This document shows, piece after piece, positions 8,571 through 28,253 of a DNA stretch of 40,520 nt. The notes under the pieces are model-generated. The model ran no database searches, was not told the origin of the DNA, and saw nothing but the letters and a program-made list of their open reading frames with translations. Made by a program: the position numbers and the translations under genes. The stretch is taken from the NCBI GenBank assembly GCA_964526635.1, contig CAZGLR010000014.1:1-40520 (forward strand), given 5' to 3'. The stretch is from an uncultured Ignavibacteriales bacterium. GTDB taxonomy: Bacteria > Zixibacteria > MSB-5A5 > GN15 > JAAZOE01. The first letter of the stretch is position 1, and each line of letters opens with the position of its first letter.

Positions 8571-9749
8571 ATGAAAGTCCTGATCTGCCTCCTGCTTGTC
8601 AGTGTTCTGGCAACACTTTTTACCGACTCATTATCCGCTGCCACCAAAGTCTATTTCGAAACCTTCGAGCGGCAGATCACCACCGATACGGCCGACCAGT
8701 TTGATCCATCGATTTGCGGCACGATAATCGTCTATTCCGATCGCCGCAATAGCGATGCCGATGTGTACATCTATGATCTGGCGGCTGATTCGGAGATTCA
8801 GGTGACCAGCGGTGGCGGTGATCAACTCCTGACCGATGTCTGGGACAATCACGTTGTCTATACCGACTATGGCAGCGGCAATGCCGAGATATTCCTGCGG
8901 TATCCTTCCGGATCATATGCCTCCATTCTTTCCCATCCGGCCAACCAGCGCCGTCCGGCTATCAACGACGGCGTCATTGTTTTCGAGGACGATCGCAATG
9001 GCAATTACGATTGTTACTGGTATATCAGCACGACATTGAGCGGATGGGTGACGCTTGATCTTTCTCATCAAAGAAAACCAGCCGTAGCCGATTCGATTAT
9101 CGTTTATGAGGATTTCCGCAATGGCAATTCTGATGTCGGCATGTATCGTGTCGGGTGGTCGACCGAGATGCTGCTGACAGATGATCCCGCTCAGGATGTC
9201 GATCCCGATATCAATGACGGTATAATTGCGTTTTGCTCCAATCGCGCAGATATTGGAGATGTTTTCTACTTCGATATCGCAGCTGATTCTTTGGTACAGG
9301 TAACGGCCGGTGACGGCAACTATGAACGGAACCCATCGGTTTCAGGCGATTTCATTACTTATGAAAGCTATGCCGCCGGCGATGCCGATATCTGGCTGTA
9401 TTCGATTCTACTCGATTCTTCGGTACGCATAACGTGTGATTCTGCCGAGCAATACCTGCATGATCATTCCGGCAATACGATTGTCTACACGGATAATCGC
9501 AACGGCAATCTCGATATCTACGCCATGACTTTCCTTTTCGAAGAAGTCGTGTGTGGTGATGCCAATGGTGATGATATCGTCAATGTCGGTGACGCTATCT
9601 TTCTCATCAATTATATCTTCAAAGCCGGGCCCGAACCGCTGCCGAAAATAGCCGGCGATGCCTCCTGTGATGAAGAACTCAATGTCGGCGATGCCATCTA
9701 TATCATCAATTATGTCTTCAACGGTGGTCCGGAGCCCTGTTGTCCATAG
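8571..9749 (+). CDS. Secreted TolB-like beta-propeller (PD40-repeat-like) protein with C-terminal type-I dockerin-like module
   Basis: Signal peptide MKVLICLLLVSVLATLFTDSLSA (ATG at 8571 preferred over 8547); repeated motifs (IYIYDLAADSEIQVTSGG, FYFDIAADSLVQVTAGDG); C-terminal CGDANGDDIVNVGDAIFLINYIFKAGPEP...GDASCDEELNVGDAIYIINYVFNGGPEPCCP is two dockerin EF-hand-like repeats. Confidence 0.75.
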   Translation: MKVLICLLLVSVLATLFTDSLSAATKVYFETFERQITTDTADQFDPSICGTIIVYSDRRNSDADVYIYDLAADSEIQVTSGGGDQLLTDVWDNHVVYTDYGSGNAEIFLRYPSGSYASILSHPANQRRPAINDGVIVFEDDRNGNYDCYWYISTTLSGWVTLDLSHQRKPAVADSIIVYEDFRNGNSDVGMYRVGWSTEMLLTDDPAQDVDPDINDGIIAFCSNRADIGDVFYFDIAADSLVQVTAGDGNYERNPSVSGDFITYESYAAGDADIWLYSILLDSSVRITCDSAEQYLHDHSGNTIVYTDNRNGNLDIYAMTFLFEEVVCGDANGDDIVNVGDAIFLINYIFKAGPEPLPKIAGDASCDEELNVGDAIYIINYVFNGGPEPCCP

Positions 9750-9851
9750 CCCGTAATATCTTCGTTTCGCCGGGTATTTTGTGATATCATAACCTGTGTC
9801 ACACCCGTATAAAGGGTAAATCAATCTATAATTTTATCAGGGAGTCTGCCC

Positions 9852-10319
9852 ATGGCTACCTACGACTGGAGTCGTTTTGTCGAAAGAATCTACATCAATG
9901 CTTCACCTGAGCGGGTTTTCAATGCCTGGACCCAAGGAAGGGAACTGATGCGATGGTTTCCGATAAAAGCCGAAAGCGAAGCAAAAACCGGCGGACGGCT
10001 TTATTATGCCTGGCTCGGGGATGACAAGCTGGAGACAACGTATATCAAGGTCGTCAGGAACCGTTCGATTGAGTTCCCTTTTGGTAGTCATGGCGAAAAG
10101 GTCCGGGTGAAATTCCGCAAGAAAGGCTCCGGCTGTATTTGCGAGCTGGAGCAATTCGATATGAAGACAGACCCAAAAACCAAAGCGAGTACGCATCTTG
10201 GTTGCGCCACCGGGTGGGCCTTTTTCCTGGCCAACCTGAAGGCATATCTTGAGCACGGGATTGATTTGCGCAGCCATGATCCGAAGATGAGCTATCGCCA
10301 GGGTTTTGTTAACTCGTAA
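9852..10319 (+). CDS. SRPBCC-superfamily (AHSA1/CalC-like) protein
   Basis: About 155 aa; N-terminal WTQGRELMRWFP resembles activator-of-Hsp90-ATPase/polyketide cyclase SRPBCC proteins; good RBS (agggag). Confidence 0.55.
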   Translation: MATYDWSRFVERIYINASPERVFNAWTQGRELMRWFPIKAESEAKTGGRLYYAWLGDDKLETTYIKVVRNRSIEFPFGSHGEKVRVKFRKKGSGCICELEQFDMKTDPKTKASTHLGCATGWAFFLANLKAYLEHGIDLRSHDPKMSYRQGFVNS

Positions 10320-10508
10320 GGTGGCCTGTGAGGGTAGTTGTTTACTTATGTTCGAAAGTGACAACCGCGCTTGAAAATGCGGCAAAATCAAACCACATTT
10401 TACGAAATCTTCTGTGGTATCTAATGGTAAACCACTAATGACATCGCCCTCCGCATCCGATTAAGATAATAGTGGATTGTGCGAAAATAAGAATCAGGAA
10501 TTAATCGG

Positions 10509-26310: not shown

Positions 26311-26483
26311 ATAGGACGCTTTGTCCTGACTCATTATGATCAGCACGGCCAGATTGAAAAATTGATGATTTCGTTTATCGTCGGCAAAACGGGACCAATG
26401 AACCTCGTTAAAAAGTCACTCGGGGCTACGTTCGATGGCACCGATCTGGAAACATTGCGACCTGAATAATCGGTATACAGTAG

Positions 26484-26512
26484 AAAAAAGCCGCCCCGGT
26501 CGGGACGGCTTT
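26484..26512 (-). terminator. Rho-independent terminator for the minus-strand beta-helix gene
   Basis: On the minus strand: aagccgtcccgaccggggcggctt hairpin followed by ttttttc. Confidence 0.5.
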
Positions 26513-26534
26513 GTGAACTTATGTCATGATGCGA

Positions 26535-28253
26535 CTAAAACGGACAATATCCCGGTGCGGAACCGCCGAGGAAAATGAACTGAATAAGGTAGACCGCATC
26601 GCCGATATTTAACGCGCCATCGCAATTGACTTCAGCCAGTCTCATGTCAGGGGGAGCATCGCCGCCGCGAAACACATAATTGACGAGATAGACAATATCG
26701 CCGACATTGACGACGCCGTCGGCATTGGCATCTCCTGAGGCATGACCGATAAACGTCATCTGCCCGGCGATTTCAAATGGTGTCGCATCGGAAAATTCAC
26801 CGGTAATGGTGTAATCCTGCCGACTGGTATCCCACATCAATGGATAGGTTTGAATAAACTCGGTAACCGGAAACTCAATCCGCAGGCCGGAACCGAGAGG
26901 AGGGTCCGGTGGCAGGATTTCAATCCGGGAAGGCTCAATAGAGCCGTTTAGCCGTATCGAAGCGGGTACGATATTATCGACCGGTTGCGGCGCCTCGGTC
27001 ATCGGAATAATACACTCGCCGGTCAGTGGTTCGATAGCGAATTGGTACAGCGCATACATCGGGTCCGGCGTCATAACGGGGCCGCTATCATCACAGCCGG
27101 GTAACATGGACCCCATCAGCACCCCGCAACTGTTGTTGGCCGGGGCGCACGGTGATGATTCGGTAAGATGAAGATTGCCTGAGGCGGTATCACAAAAAAG
27201 CGGATCATTGCTGATATTGCCGTTGACGCCAAAAAACGGTGCCAGATACCCAACCCAATTGCCGGGATTGCCGAAAATATCCGTGCAACTGAAGACCGGG
27301 GCGGCGCTGCTACCGATAACATAAAACGCTCGGTCGTCACTATTGAATGCAACCAGCATGTTCTCGAACACCGGTTCGCTGGCATTGGCGCTGTTTCGTT
27401 CCTGGATATAGAAGGCGCTCCCGGTTCCGCCGGAATTGTCATATACCGTGCCGTTGGCAAACACCGGCGAACAGCGATCCTGCAGAAAAACAGCTCCACC
27501 CAGTTGCGACGCCGAATTGCCGACAATCGTGCAGCCGGTATAGCTGCCATCGACGGCATAATGGCCTATTGCGCCGCCATGAATAGCATCATTGCCGATA
27601 AACTGACAATCGGTAAATGTCGGAGTATTACCGTGGCTGAAGAACATTGCTCCGCCGTAGCCGGGGGCGACATTTTGCTTAAAGAGGCAATTCTCGGCGG
27701 TAAATGATGCTCCCCATCCGCCGATCGCGCCGCCATAGGAGGCGTGCTCGGTTGTTTGATTGGCGCTGAATTCACAATCGATCAAAAACAGATGACTGCC
27801 TTCGGAGCCATAGATTGCGCCGCCCCAGTTACTGGCCGAGTTTTGTATAAAGCGGCAGTTTTCGATGAGCGAAGAAAATGTGGCGTTAAAAACAGCGCCG
27901 CCACGCATTGCGCCGCCGAAGTTGGTAAATGTGAAACCACTAATCAGGATGTTGTCGCCATAGCTCGAGCTTAATTCGCATGCTCGTACCGGAGTTATGC
28001 CATCAAACTGACCATTGAGTTCTGTGACCACCGGGCCGTCTTCGGCAATCAGGCTGATATTATCGACAGGAAAGACCAGGTTATTGTTTCCCGCTCCGGT
28101 ATATGTTCCCGCTTTGACGACTACGGTATCGAAGGCGGCGACGGCATCGAGTGCTGACTGGATGCTGCTGTAATCATCGGGGACGATTACCGTGCCGGCC
28201 ACACATGCGGCACCGAGGATAAGACATAGCGCAACCACTAAATAAATTTTCAT
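26535..28253 (-). CDS. Secreted right-handed parallel beta-helix (pectate-lyase-fold) protein with C-terminal type-I dockerin-like module
   Basis: Signal peptide MKIYLVVALCLILGAACVA (ATG at 28253 with GGGGGAA RBS); many GGA[IV]/NxxxxGG beta-helix rungs (GGAIYG, GGAIGG, GGAMFF, GGAIGH, GGAVFL); C-terminal GDANADGVVNVGDIVYLVNYVFRGGDAPPDMRLAEVNCDGALNIGDAVYLIQFIFLGGSAPGYCPF. Confidence 0.75.
   Translation of the reverse strand: MKIYLVVALCLILGAACVAGTVIVPDDYSSIQSALDAVAAFDTVVVKAGTYTGAGNNNLVFPVDNISLIAEDGPVVTELNGQFDGITPVRACELSSSYGDNILISGFTFTNFGGAMRGGAVFNATFSSLIENCRFIQNSASNWGGAIYGSEGSHLFLIDCEFSANQTTEHASYGGAIGGWGASFTAENCLFKQNVAPGYGGAMFFSHGNTPTFTDCQFIGNDAIHGGAIGHYAVDGSYTGCTIVGNSASQLGGAVFLQDRCSPVFANGTVYDNSGGTGSAFYIQERNSANASEPVFENMLVAFNSDDRAFYVIGSSAAPVFSCTDIFGNPGNWVGYLAPFFGVNGNISNDPLFCDTASGNLHLTESSPCAPANNSCGVLMGSMLPGCDDSGPVMTPDPMYALYQFAIEPLTGECIIPMTEAPQPVDNIVPASIRLNGSIEPSRIEILPPDPPLGSGLRIEFPVTEFIQTYPLMWDTSRQDYTITGEFSDATPFEIAGQMTFIGHASGDANADGVVNVGDIVYLVNYVFRGGDAPPDMRLAEVNCDGALNIGDAVYLIQFIFLGGSAPGYCPF

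What the first reader, a model, noticed from the sequence alone, without database searches (positions are those of the whole stretch)
8571..28253. Four unrelated secreted proteins share a type-I dockerin-like module bracketed by Cys; no cohesin partner visible
A TolB-like propeller (8571-9749), an M4 metalloprotease (19440-22715), an Ig-repeat/Cys-rich protein (23685-25718) and a pectate-lyase-like beta-helix protein (26535-28253) all carry two Ca-binding EF-hand-like repeats of the form DxNxDGxVNVxDxxYxxNYxFxxGPxP. The N-terminal repeat begins with a Cys-Gly-Asp, and three of the four C-termini end in PCCP or GYCPF. This resembles cellulosomal dockerins used outside a cellulolytic context, which would imply a general cohesin-dockerin (or analogous) surface-display system for proteases, lyases and binding proteins. 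The conserved flanking Cys residues suggest a disulfide-stapled variant. The receptor is not in this window.
Basis: partly seen in the sequence, partly recalled or inferred. Interest (0 to 1): 0.7.

Follow-up and report, generated by a model that had tools for sequence, protein, structure and literature searches.

The report
Cysteine-clasped dockerin tags on secreted proteins
Four unrelated secreted proteins in this window carry a genuine calcium-binding dockerin module of a cysteine-stapled subtype common in Zixibacteria-like bacteria. Relatives of this organism encode matching cohesin modules on surface-anchored proteins, so this is a little-described variant of a known protein-docking system, not a new kind of system.

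Summary
Four signal-peptide proteins (a beta-propeller, an M4 protease, an Ig-repeat/Cys-rich protein and a PMP-repeat beta-helix protein) each carry one dockerin module. All four pass the Pfam Dockerin_1 gathering score. An AlphaFold model (pLDDT 94) superposes on solved type-I dockerins.

The cysteines are not random. Across 129 related modules, the number of N-side cysteines (position -1 before the first Gly-Asp, or Ca-loop 2/linker) equals the number in the C-terminal tail in 97 cases, against about 51 in shuffles. The model places the tail against loop 2. This fits one or two disulfides acting as a covalent version of the known dockerin "intramolecular clasp".

The module family is very large (43,711 clusters) and is concentrated in Candidatus Zixiibacteriota and other FCB-group MAGs. 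There it tags mainly proteases, not glycoside hydrolases.

The window holds no cohesin and no T9SS sorting domain. Related MAGs do encode cohesins: fused to T9SS C-terminal sorting domains, standalone, or together with this dockerin type.

A similar dockerin/cohesin/T9SS-anchor system was already inferred for Cloacimonadota (PMC8542988). Binding, the actual disulfides and the route across the outer membrane remain untested.

The parts
8547..9749 (+). Secreted beta-propeller protein (400 aa; alternative start 8571) with a C-terminal dockerin
   Evidence: Signal peptide visible in the sequence. TIGR04275 beta-propeller repeat scores 190 bits. PD40 and Dockerin_1 score 25.6 bits each.
9546..9746 (+). 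Dockerin module 1, 4-Cys class (C at -1, C in loop 2, tail PCCP)
19440..22715 (+). Secreted M4 (thermolysin-family) metalloprotease, 1091 aa: FTP/PepSY propeptide, M4 catalytic domains, about 460 aa of middle domains, C-terminal dockerin
   Evidence: Peptidase_M4_C 139.9 bits, Peptidase_M4 88.1 bits, FTP 39.6 bits, Dockerin_1 24.3 bits. The C-terminal half is 40% identical to dockerin proteins of related MAGs (L039, L030).
22512..22712 (+). Dockerin module 2, 4-Cys class. This is the module that was modelled.
   Evidence: AlphaFold pLDDT 94, helices 22-34/42-45/55-66, beta-bridge N48-C73. Foldseek top 31 PDB matches are all dockerins.
23685..25751 (-). Secreted protein, 688 aa (alternative start 25718): N-terminal domain, repeats, INTERNAL dockerin, then a Cys-rich C-terminal domain of about 210 aa containing an HEEKH motif
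   Evidence: Dockerin_1 at 43.3 bits is the only Pfam hit. The C-terminal domain has no PDB relative and gave no usable model.
24324..24548 (-). Dockerin module 3 (aa 402-476): C at -1, no loop-2 Cys, tail PC...PCC
26535..28265 (-). Secreted PMP-repeat / right-handed beta-helix protein, 576 aa (alternative start 28253), with a C-terminal dockerin
   Evidence: Chlam_PMP 27 bits and Dockerin_1 25.1 bits. POMP_repeat. 30% identity to the beta-helix part of L003:4541-8743, which Pfam calls Beta_helix.
26538..26744 (-). Dockerin module 4, 2-Cys class (Ser at -1, C in loop 2, single tail Cys in GYCPF)

Best explanation
The four proteins are Sec-exported enzymes and binding proteins of a Zixibacteria-like (FCB-group) diderm bacterium. 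Each carries a bona fide type-I-like dockerin.

**Structure of the module.** It has two symmetric Ca2+-binding loop-helix repeats, with a consensus of D-A-N-x-D-G-x-V-N-V-G-D-A-V-Y-L-I-N-Y-V-F-K-G-G-P in both repeats. After export the module is locked by one or two disulfides. One links the Cys at position -1 (just before the first Gly-Asp) to a tail Cys. The other links a Cys in Ca-loop 2 (or in the linker) to a second tail Cys. This would be a covalent version of the non-covalent N-/C-terminal 'intramolecular clasp' known from clostridial and ruminococcal dockerins.

**Function.** The module most likely docks its carrier onto cohesin modules encoded elsewhere in the genome. In related genomes these cohesins sit on proteins anchored by a type IX secretion C-terminal domain, on adaptor proteins (cohesins plus the same dockerin), and on small standalone secreted proteins. 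The result would be a cellulosome-like but mainly proteolytic surface assembly.

**Shown:** dockerin identity, fold (predicted), cysteine co-variation, lineage, partner-domain census, and the existence of cohesins and T9SS anchors in relatives.

**Inferred:** the disulfides themselves, cohesin binding, surface location, and how dockerin-only proteins cross the outer membrane.
For: **Dockerin identity**
- Pfam Dockerin_1 is above the gathering score in all four proteins.
- The family profile matches 22 solved dockerins, best E = 1e-7.
- AlphaFold model pLDDT 94. The top 31 Foldseek PDB hits are all dockerins, with type I best (TM 0.6-0.74, rmsd 1.6-2.3 A).
- Both repeats share the same consensus, including the helix positions 10/11 and 17/18 that contact cohesin in solved complexes. 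This fits a conserved partner and a possible dual binding mode.

**Cysteines**
- Cys is enriched at only a few profile columns.
- A Cys at -1 co-occurs with a tail Cys in 198 of 201 modules (Fisher 7e-32).
- N-side and tail Cys counts are equal in 97 of 129 modules, against a shuffle mean of 50.8 +/- 5.1 and a maximum of 69 in 10,000 shuffles.
- The balance persists after redundancy reduction: 70/93, 35/47 and 14/19.
- The model shows a beta-bridge between N48 (next to loop-2 C49) and tail C73.
- Solved dockerins make their clasp between positions -1 to -3 and the C-terminus (PMC3821032).
- Solved dockerins have L, Y or K at position -1 and no Cys there.

**Lineage**
- The best 79 genomic loci are almost all Candidatus Zixiibacteriota / FCB MAGs, with many loci per MAG.
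- NCBI names such proteins 'dockerin type I repeat-containing protein'.

**Receptors in relatives**
- Pfam Cohesin is above the gathering score in four proteins:
  - L067:289-5328, 41 bits, with a T9SS CTD.
  - L076:11687-19075, 28.4 bits, with a CTD.
  - L011:4323-6962, 40.1 bits, with this dockerin type.
  - L121:10896-12362, 27.8 bits.
- A profile of 18 further modules hits only PDB 2xdh 'COHESIN', E = 2.4e-4.
- Architectures seen: SP-Coh-CTD, standalone Coh, Coh-Doc, S8-PKD-Coh-Doc, Coh x3-Doc.
- A standalone cohesin gene lies next to an M6-peptidase-dockerin gene.

**Precedent:** Cloacimonadota (PMC8542988).
Against: - No cohesin or T9SS component lies in the 40.5 kb window. The rest of this genome could not be reached: the window is not in the searched collections.
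- Most cohesin modules found in relatives sit directly next to a dockerin in the same polypeptide. They may therefore be occupied in cis or serve self-assembly, not enzyme capture.
- Three of the four Pfam scores exceed the cut-off only narrowly (24.3-25.6 against 22.9).
- The dockerin-only proteins have no recognisable signal for crossing the outer membrane.
- Disulfides are inferred from statistics and from one contact in a model whose coordinates I could not inspect. The organism looks anaerobic (multihaem cytochromes, Hdr-like and Fe-S proteins), where extracellular disulfides may be less stable.
- No binding data exist for any member of this subfamily.
Confidence: 0.6

Rival explanations
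1. Orphan dockerin. The module has the dockerin fold but does not bind a cohesin. It acts as a small Ca2+- and disulfide-stabilised appendage that binds another ligand (envelope glycan, peptidoglycan, exopolymer or substrate), or simply stabilises and solubilises the carrier.
For: - No cohesin is in the window.
- Dockerins greatly outnumber cohesin-like modules in the sampled neighbourhoods: 137 ORFs against 18. That sample was chosen around dockerins, so the ratio is biased.
- Some proteins carry 9-12 tandem dockerins, in some cases with a peptidoglycan-binding domain. This is hard to read as simple enzyme tagging.
- Non-cellulosomal dockerins without known partners are a recognised class (Peer et al. 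2009, cited in PMC8542988).
Against: - Cohesins do exist in the lineage and are repeatedly fused or adjacent to exactly this dockerin type.
- Both helices keep an almost invariant, symmetric surface across unrelated carrier proteins and across genomes. This argues for a conserved protein partner.
Confidence: 0.22
2. Sorting signal. The shared C-terminal module is recognised by a secretion or attachment machine. It would be a functional analogue of the T9SS CTD or of PEP-CTERM, or a tag that lets cargo ride out bound to a T9SS carrier, and not a post-secretion assembly tag.
For: - 128 of 141 dockerin ORFs have the module within 12 residues of the C-terminus.
- The same enzyme types (for example S8 subtilases) occur with either a T9SS CTD or a dockerin.
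- C25 gingipain-like and M6/InhA-like peptidases are classical T9SS cargo in Bacteroidota (own knowledge; compare the NCBIfam T9SS-dependent families). Here they carry dockerins.
- The dockerin-only proteins lack any other outer-membrane export signal.
Against: - The module is internal or N-terminal in 13 ORFs, including one of the four in this window.
- It occurs in tandem arrays.
- It co-occurs with a true T9SS CTD in the same polypeptide, as Doc-X-CTD.
- No TIGR04183 or PEP-CTERM match in the four proteins and no CTD-profile hit in the window.
- The fold is that of a ligand-binding dockerin.
Confidence: 0.1
3. The cysteines bind a metal (for example a Cys4 Zn site), or form intermolecular bonds, instead of intramolecular disulfides.
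For: - In the 4-Cys class all four cysteines are predicted to converge: -1 with the tail (the known clasp) and loop 2 with the tail.
- The habitat is probably anoxic.
Against: - Two-Cys classes are common (32 + 10 of 129 modules) and cannot build a tetrahedral site.
- Cys totals favour even numbers: 0/2/4 occur 84/141/117 times, against 52/55/29 for 1/3/5.
- N-side and tail counts balance one-for-one. That is the signature of pairing.
Confidence: 0.08

Closest known systems
Type I dockerins of clostridial cellulosomes (e.g. C. thermocellum Cel48S, PDB 2mte/1daq; Xyn10B, PDB 1ohz/2ccl)
   Same: Two roughly 22-residue F-hand repeats with Ca ligands at positions 1, 3, 5, 9 and 12. Three-helix fold (TM 0.63-0.74). 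Predominantly C-terminal position on secreted enzymes. Near-symmetric repeats.
   Different: - 20-33% identity only.
- Carriers are proteases, propellers and beta-helices in a diderm FCB bacterium, not glycoside hydrolases in a Firmicute.
- Recognition positions are V-G / I-N instead of S-T / K-R.
- Conserved cysteines at -1, in loop 2 and in the tail are absent from all solved dockerins shown.
Dockerin 'intramolecular clasp' (Slutzki et al. 2013, PMC3821032)
   Same: A contact between residues -1 to -3 before the conserved Gly and C-terminal residues stabilises the Ca2+-bound fold and cohesin binding. The Cys at -1 and the tail Cys occupy exactly these places.
   Different: Known clasps are aromatic stacking, hydrophobic or electrostatic. 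Here the inferred clasp is covalent (a disulfide), and a second bond ties the tail to Ca-loop 2. I found no report of a natural disulfide clasp.
Cellulosome-like system inferred in Cloacimonadota, 'Ca. Stygibacter' (Williams et al. 2021, PMC8542988)
   Same: An FCB-group candidate phylum. Signal-peptide enzymes with C-terminal dockerins, including S8 and C25 peptidases. A scaffoldin-like cohesin protein attached through a T9SS C-terminal domain. Proposed degradation of polypeptides as well as polysaccharides.
   Different: - A different phylum.
- That paper reports one 3,755-aa scaffoldin with tandem cohesins and CBMs. Here the relatives show many small and large cohesin proteins, frequent cis cohesin-dockerin pairs, and the cysteine-clasped dockerin subtype.
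- No cysteine pattern is described in the passages read.
Non-cellulosomal cohesins and dockerins (Peer et al. 2009; Archaeoglobus fulgidus cohesin, PDB 2xdh)
   Same: Dockerin and cohesin modules on proteins unrelated to cellulose breakdown. The lineage's cohesin-like modules match 2xdh best.
   Different: The identification of 2xdh as the A. fulgidus protein and the content of Peer et al. rest on my own knowledge; the paper was not readable here. The scale of the expansion here (43,711 clusters for this profile) post-dates that survey.
T9SS type A C-terminal sorting domain (TIGR04183 / PF18962)
   Same: A C-terminal tag shared by unrelated secreted enzymes of FCB bacteria. It is present in the same lineage and on the same enzyme classes.
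   Different: A beta-sandwich of about 80 aa that is recognised and removed by the secretion machinery. It is not homologous to the dockerin, and the four window proteins do not have it.

Membership tests
Dockerin type I (Pfam PF00404) | Score at or above the curated gathering threshold (22.9 bits) | tested here: met
   25.6, 24.3, 43.3 and 25.1 bits. Three of the four are only marginally above the threshold.
Dockerin type I (Pfam PF00404) | Two tandem loop-helix (F-hand) repeats with Ca2+ ligands at loop positions 1, 3, 5, 9 and 12 | tested here: met
   All eight repeats keep D/E-x-N/S-x-D-x-x-x-N-x-x-D. The family consensus is shown.
Dockerin type I (Pfam PF00404) | Three-helix fold superposable on solved dockerins | tested here: met
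   Prediction only. pLDDT 94. The 31 best PDB matches are all dockerins, rmsd 1.6-2.3 A over 57-67 columns.
Dockerin type I (Pfam PF00404) | Ca2+-dependent folding and high-affinity binding to a cognate cohesin | not testable with these tools
   Requires biochemistry. No complex modelling tool was available.
Cohesin-dockerin assembly system (cellulosome-like) | Cohesin-bearing partner encoded in the same genome | tested here: inconclusive
   None in the window. Present in related MAGs.
Cohesin-dockerin assembly system (cellulosome-like) | A cell-surface anchor on a cohesin protein | tested here: met
   Met in relatives only. T9SS CTD (TIGR04183, 29.7-39.6 bits; gathering score 23) is found on cohesin proteins L067 and L076.
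Cellulosome sensu stricto | Dockerins borne mainly by glycoside hydrolases and other plant-cell-wall enzymes, plus a CBM-bearing scaffoldin | tested here: not met
   The window carriers are a protease, a propeller, a beta-helix and an Ig-repeat protein. In 85 related dockerin ORFs the commonest partners are peptidases, with no GH family in the top 25.
T9SS type A sorting domain (TIGR04183 / PF18962) | C-terminal domain of about 75 aa matching the model | tested here: not met
   No match in the four proteins at E <= 0.01. A lineage CTD profile finds 19 ORFs in related loci but none in the window.
PEP-CTERM sorting signal | Pro-Glu-Pro motif, a transmembrane helix and a basic cluster at the C-terminus | tested here: not met
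   The tails end in ...GGPEPCCP...GPNPCCP and ...APGYCPF, with no hydrophobic helix or Arg cluster. No NCBIfam PEP-CTERM hit.
Disulfide-clasped dockerin subtype (proposed here) | Paired cysteines: position -1 with the tail, and loop 2 or linker with the tail | tested here: inconclusive
   Co-occurrence statistics and a modelled tail/loop-2 beta-bridge support pairing. No coordinates or chemistry were available to show the bonds.

The most novel reading that the evidence does not exclude
In Zixibacteria-like diderms the cysteine-clasped dockerin is the cargo half of a phylum-wide, T9SS-linked display system. Dockerin-only enzymes fold and are disulfide-locked in the periplasm. There they bind cohesins on CTD-bearing carrier proteins and are carried through the wide T9SS translocon as passengers ('hitch-hiking'). 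They end up on the cell surface in proteolytic assemblies. The widespread and largely unannotated cohesin-dockerin-X-CTD cassette would be the anchoring and self-assembling backbone.
Probability: 0.1. Interest if true: 0.75.

Novelty: new variant of a known kind. Interest (0 to 1): 0.42.

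Why it matters
Thousands of 'orphan' dockerins in uncultured bacteria have no known partner or role.

This lineage offers concrete pairs to test:
- cohesins fused to the same dockerin type;
- a standalone cohesin next to a dockerin-protease gene;
- a small signal-peptide-cohesin-T9SS-anchor protein.

It also points to a mainly proteolytic, surface-tethered enzyme system in a widespread sediment phylum.

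A naturally disulfide-locked dockerin would also be a useful part for engineered cohesin-dockerin scaffolds, where clasp integrity is known to control stability and affinity (PMC3821032).

The general concept is not new. Non-cellulosomal dockerins are known, and a T9SS-anchored scaffoldin has been described in Cloacimonadota.

Tried and rejected
**Finding the source genome.** Exact-protein look-ups for three window proteins and exact-DNA scans of GTDB genomes and JGI metagenomes all returned nothing. A genome-wide cohesin or dockerin count for this organism was therefore impossible.

**Word-indexed homologue searches.**
- The first, with one module, returned only 3 fragments.
- The search with the cohA alignment returned only 4 short proteins.

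**T9SS or PEP-CTERM explanation of the shared tail.** Rejected.

**Cohesin hidden in unannotated window ORFs.**
- 7581-8330 looks like a small outer-membrane barrel.
- 15899-17047 looks like a porin-like barrel.
- The N-terminal part of 17437-19104 is coiled coil ahead of an OmpA domain.
- 22806-23654 is HEAT repeats plus a His-rich tail.
- None match any cohesin profile.

**C-terminal Cys-rich domain of the 23685-25751 protein.** No PDB relative. The single-sequence AlphaFold model is unusable (pLDDT 38.5).

**'X' domain between dockerin and T9SS CTD.**
- No PDB sequence match.
- hhalign against cohesins gives only 39% probability.
- Some copies are picked up by the iterated cohesin profile.
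- Left as 'probably a divergent cohesin, unproven'.

**cohA-type cohesin as the receptor.** I first took it to be the receptor. I then found it is almost always followed in cis by its own distinct dockerin subtype, so I do not claim it binds the window-type dockerin.

**RNA genes.** tRNA and Rfam scans of the window found nothing.

Full report
**1. What is in the window**

Each starts with a plausible Sec signal peptide and each contains one dockerin module.

| ORF | Strand | Size | Content | Module position |
|---|---|---|---|---|
| 8547-9749 | + | 400 aa | beta-propeller; TIGR04275, 190 bits | 9546-9746 |
| 19440-22715 | + | 1091 aa | M4 thermolysin-family protease with FTP/PepSY propeptide | 22512-22712 |
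| 23685-25751 | - | 688 aa | no Pfam domain other than dockerin | 24324-24548 |
| 26535-28265 | - | 576 aa | PMP-repeat beta-helix | 26538-26744 |

- Pfam Dockerin_1 (gathering score 22.9) scores 25.6, 24.3, 43.3 and 25.1 bits.
- The module coordinates were verified.
- No other copy exists in any frame.
- All eight loop-helix repeats keep the Ca2+ ligand positions.
- Three modules sit at the extreme C-terminus. The one in the 23685-25751 protein is internal and is followed by a Cys-rich domain of about 210 aa.

**2. Is it a dockerin?**

- A profile of 85 related modules matches 22 solved dockerins in the PDB by sequence, best E = 1e-7.
- An AlphaFold model of the M4 protease module, built with 121 homologues, has pLDDT 94 and pTM 0.81. 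It shows helix 1, a short helix 2 and helix 3.
- The 31 best Foldseek matches in the PDB are all dockerins. Type I dockerins rank first (TM 0.6-0.74, rmsd 1.6-2.3 A) and type II clearly lower.
- No T9SS or PEP-CTERM family matches the four proteins.
- A T9SS-CTD profile built from relatives finds nothing in the window.

**3. The cysteines**

There is a third conserved site: position 4 of the second Ca loop (DxNCDG), present in 3 of the 4 window modules.

In 497 modules from the 150 best representatives:
- Cys is concentrated at profile columns 8 (position -1), 38 (linker), 46/48 (loop 2) and 70/71 (tail).
- A Cys at -1 comes with a tail Cys in 198 of 201 cases, against 165 of 296 without it (Fisher 7e-32).
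- Even Cys totals dominate.

In 129 modules from Zixibacteria-type loci:
- The classes are (1 N-terminal, 1 loop-2/linker, 2 tail) = 42; (0,1,1) = 32; (1,0,1) = 10; (0,0,0) = 7.
- N-side and tail counts are equal in 97 of 129. The shuffle mean is 50.8 +/- 5.1 and the maximum is 69 in 10,000 shuffles.
- The balance survives redundancy reduction.
- When the middle Cys sits in the linker instead of loop 2, the tail is about three residues longer (sequences).

The four window modules themselves represent three of these balanced classes.

Structural support:
- The model has a single beta-bridge, between N48 (neighbour of loop-2 C49) and tail C73.
- Solved dockerins make an 'intramolecular clasp' between positions -1 to -3 and the C-terminus. 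Breaking it lowers Tm by up to 20 degrees and weakens cohesin binding about ten-fold (PMC3821032).
- Solved dockerins have L, Y or K at -1 and no Cys.

I therefore read the cysteines as one or two disulfides: a covalent clasp plus a tail-to-loop-2 staple. This is an inference. I could not inspect coordinates, and there is no chemistry. A metal site is a minor alternative that the common two-Cys classes argue against. I found no paper describing a natural disulfide clasp.

**4. Who has it, and on what**

- An exhaustive HMMER search finds 43,711 clusters (50% identity) at E <= 1e-3 and 13,675 at E <= 1e-10.
- A scan of one genome per GTDB species returns, as its best 79 loci, almost only Candidatus Zixiibacteriota, 'FCB group' and 'uncultured Ignavibacteria(les)' MAGs, with many loci per MAG.
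- NCBI already names such proteins 'dockerin type I repeat-containing protein [Candidatus Zixiibacteriota bacterium]'.
- The window itself is not in those collections. Its sigma-54 activator is 61% identical and syntenic with locus L051. The organism is therefore a Zixibacteria-like FCB bacterium. It is a diderm (OmpA and porin-like genes) and probably anaerobic.
- In those loci 137 ORFs carry the module. Counting the window, 128 of 141 have it at the extreme C-terminus.
- Partner domains are mainly peptidases (M14, C25, C1, S8, M23, M28, InhA-like), plus PKD, FG-GAP, TSP3, beta-propellers and a lipase. No glycoside hydrolase is among the 25 commonest families.
- This is not a cellulosome in the strict sense.

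**5. The missing receptor**

No window ORF is a cohesin by Pfam or by lineage-specific profiles in six frames. Relatives do have cohesins.

Pfam Cohesin above the gathering score (24.1):

| Protein | Size | Architecture | Cohesin bits |
|---|---|---|---|
| L067:289-5328 | 1680 aa | FG-GAP, BACON, cohesin, window-type dockerin, domain X, T9SS CTD | 41 |
| L076:11687-19075 | 2463 aa | cohesin plus CTD; from a 4.46-Mb Zixibacteria genome | 28.4 |
| L011:4323-6962 | 880 aa | signal peptide, three cohesin-like modules, C-terminal Cys-type dockerin | 40.1 |
| L121:10896-12362 | 489 aa | cohesin plus T9SS CTD | 27.8 |

Further evidence:
- An iterated lineage profile finds cohesin-like modules in 18 ORFs of the Zixibacteria-type loci. 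They include:
  - a 332-aa signal-peptide-cohesin-CTD protein (L057:3768-4766);
  - standalone cohesins (L056, L057);
  - cohesin-dockerin proteins (L019, L024);
  - an S8 protease with PKD, cohesin and dockerin (L065).
- An alignment of 18 such modules hits only one PDB sequence, 2xdh 'COHESIN' (E = 2.4e-4).
- The two cohesin subfamilies are related at 97.8% hhalign probability.
- A standalone secreted cohesin (P0273) lies beside an M6-peptidase-TSP3-dockerin gene.
- S8 proteases occur with either a T9SS CTD or a dockerin.

The parts list of a cohesin-dockerin network with T9SS anchoring therefore exists in the lineage.

Caveat: most cohesins sit in cis next to a dockerin. The 'cohA' cohesin is almost always followed by its own, distinct dockerin subtype. 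Which cohesin, if any, binds the window-type dockerin is unknown.

**6. Comparison with what is known**

- Non-cellulosomal dockerins are a recognised class (Peer et al. 2009, cited in PMC8542988).
- Williams et al. 2021 inferred, for the FCB phylum Cloacimonadota, signal-peptide enzymes with C-terminal dockerins (GH18, GH57, S8, C25). They also described a 3,755-aa cohesin scaffoldin attached by a T9SS CTD, acting on polypeptides and polysaccharides.
- The window shows the same kind of system in another phylum.
- What I did not find described is the cysteine-clasped dockerin subtype and the frequent cis cohesin-dockerin units. No paper held in the library mentions Zixibacteria together with dockerin.

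**7. Verdict**

- Best explanation (confidence 0.6): disulfide-clasped type-I-like dockerins that tether secreted proteases and binding proteins to cohesin proteins encoded elsewhere, some of them T9SS-anchored.
- Rivals: an orphan dockerin with a non-cohesin ligand (0.22), a sorting or hitch-hiking tag (0.10), and metal-binding cysteines (0.08, concerning only the cysteines).
- Novelty: a new variant of a known kind. Interest is moderate.

Noticed in passing
L084-L163 (JGI metagenome loci), e.g. L139:287-11428, L123:671-3340; also L076:11687-19078: A conserved C-terminal cassette of cohesin (cohA type), a distinct dockerin subtype ('RGDLNLNGIAYEIADAVLYTNYF...ASDVNADG..LSVADLVYLIRVIVGD'), a domain X of about 125 aa, and a T9SS CTD. 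It ends 80 of 84 cohA-bearing ORFs, in proteins of up to 3,713 aa, and at least 367 relatives exist in metagenomes. In the six cohA-only cassette proteins scanned, Pfam detects only the CTD. This may be a self-assembling or cis-locked surface unit.
   Followed up: partly
P0004, P0005, P0008 and P0006/7/9/10/11/13 (representatives): Poly-dockerin proteins. They carry 7-12 Pfam-counted tandem dockerins, each bracketed CGD...GGPAPxC in P0004 and P0005. P0005 and P0008 have a peptidoglycan-binding domain in the middle. The others have a C-terminal S8 peptidase.
   Followed up: partly
window 23688-24344 (-), aa 470-688 of the 23685-25751 protein: A Cys-rich C-terminal domain after the internal dockerin contains an HExxH-like motif (VHEEKH). 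It has no Pfam or PDB relative, and the single-sequence AlphaFold model is unusable (pLDDT 38.5).
   Followed up: partly
window 905-3460 (+): An 851-aa fusion of multihaem cytochrome c domains (c7 / MtrC-MtrF-like / c554) with a membrane cytochrome b561 (Ni_hydr_CYTB) domain. This suggests a transmembrane electron conduit.
   Followed up: no
window 22806-23654 (-): A HEAT-repeat protein with an N-terminal hydrophobic segment and a His/Asp-rich tail (HGHDHSHDHHGHDHGHSHDDPDHNHQH). It lies directly downstream of, and on the same strand as, the two minus-strand dockerin genes, so it is possibly co-transcribed.
   Followed up: no
window 28266-30115: About 1.85 kb without a convincing gene. The ORFs 28421-28966 and 29489-30079 have no family match and look non-coding. 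No tRNA or Rfam family was found.
   Followed up: partly
window 34076-39588 (+): A cluster of three Nitro_FeMo-Co (NifX/NifB-like) domain proteins, DUF5320, two MinD/ParA-type P-loop ATPases with 4Fe-4S domains, and a CCG/Fer4 (HdrD-like) protein. It lies downstream of a PAS-sigma54 activator. The activator and two of the small proteins are syntenic in L051.
   Followed up: no
L056:7148-7714 and L056:7736-8017: A 188-aa standalone cohesin-like ORF is followed 22 bp later by a 94-aa ORF that is only a dockerin. This is either a natural two-gene cohesin/dockerin pair or one gene split by a frameshift.
   Followed up: no
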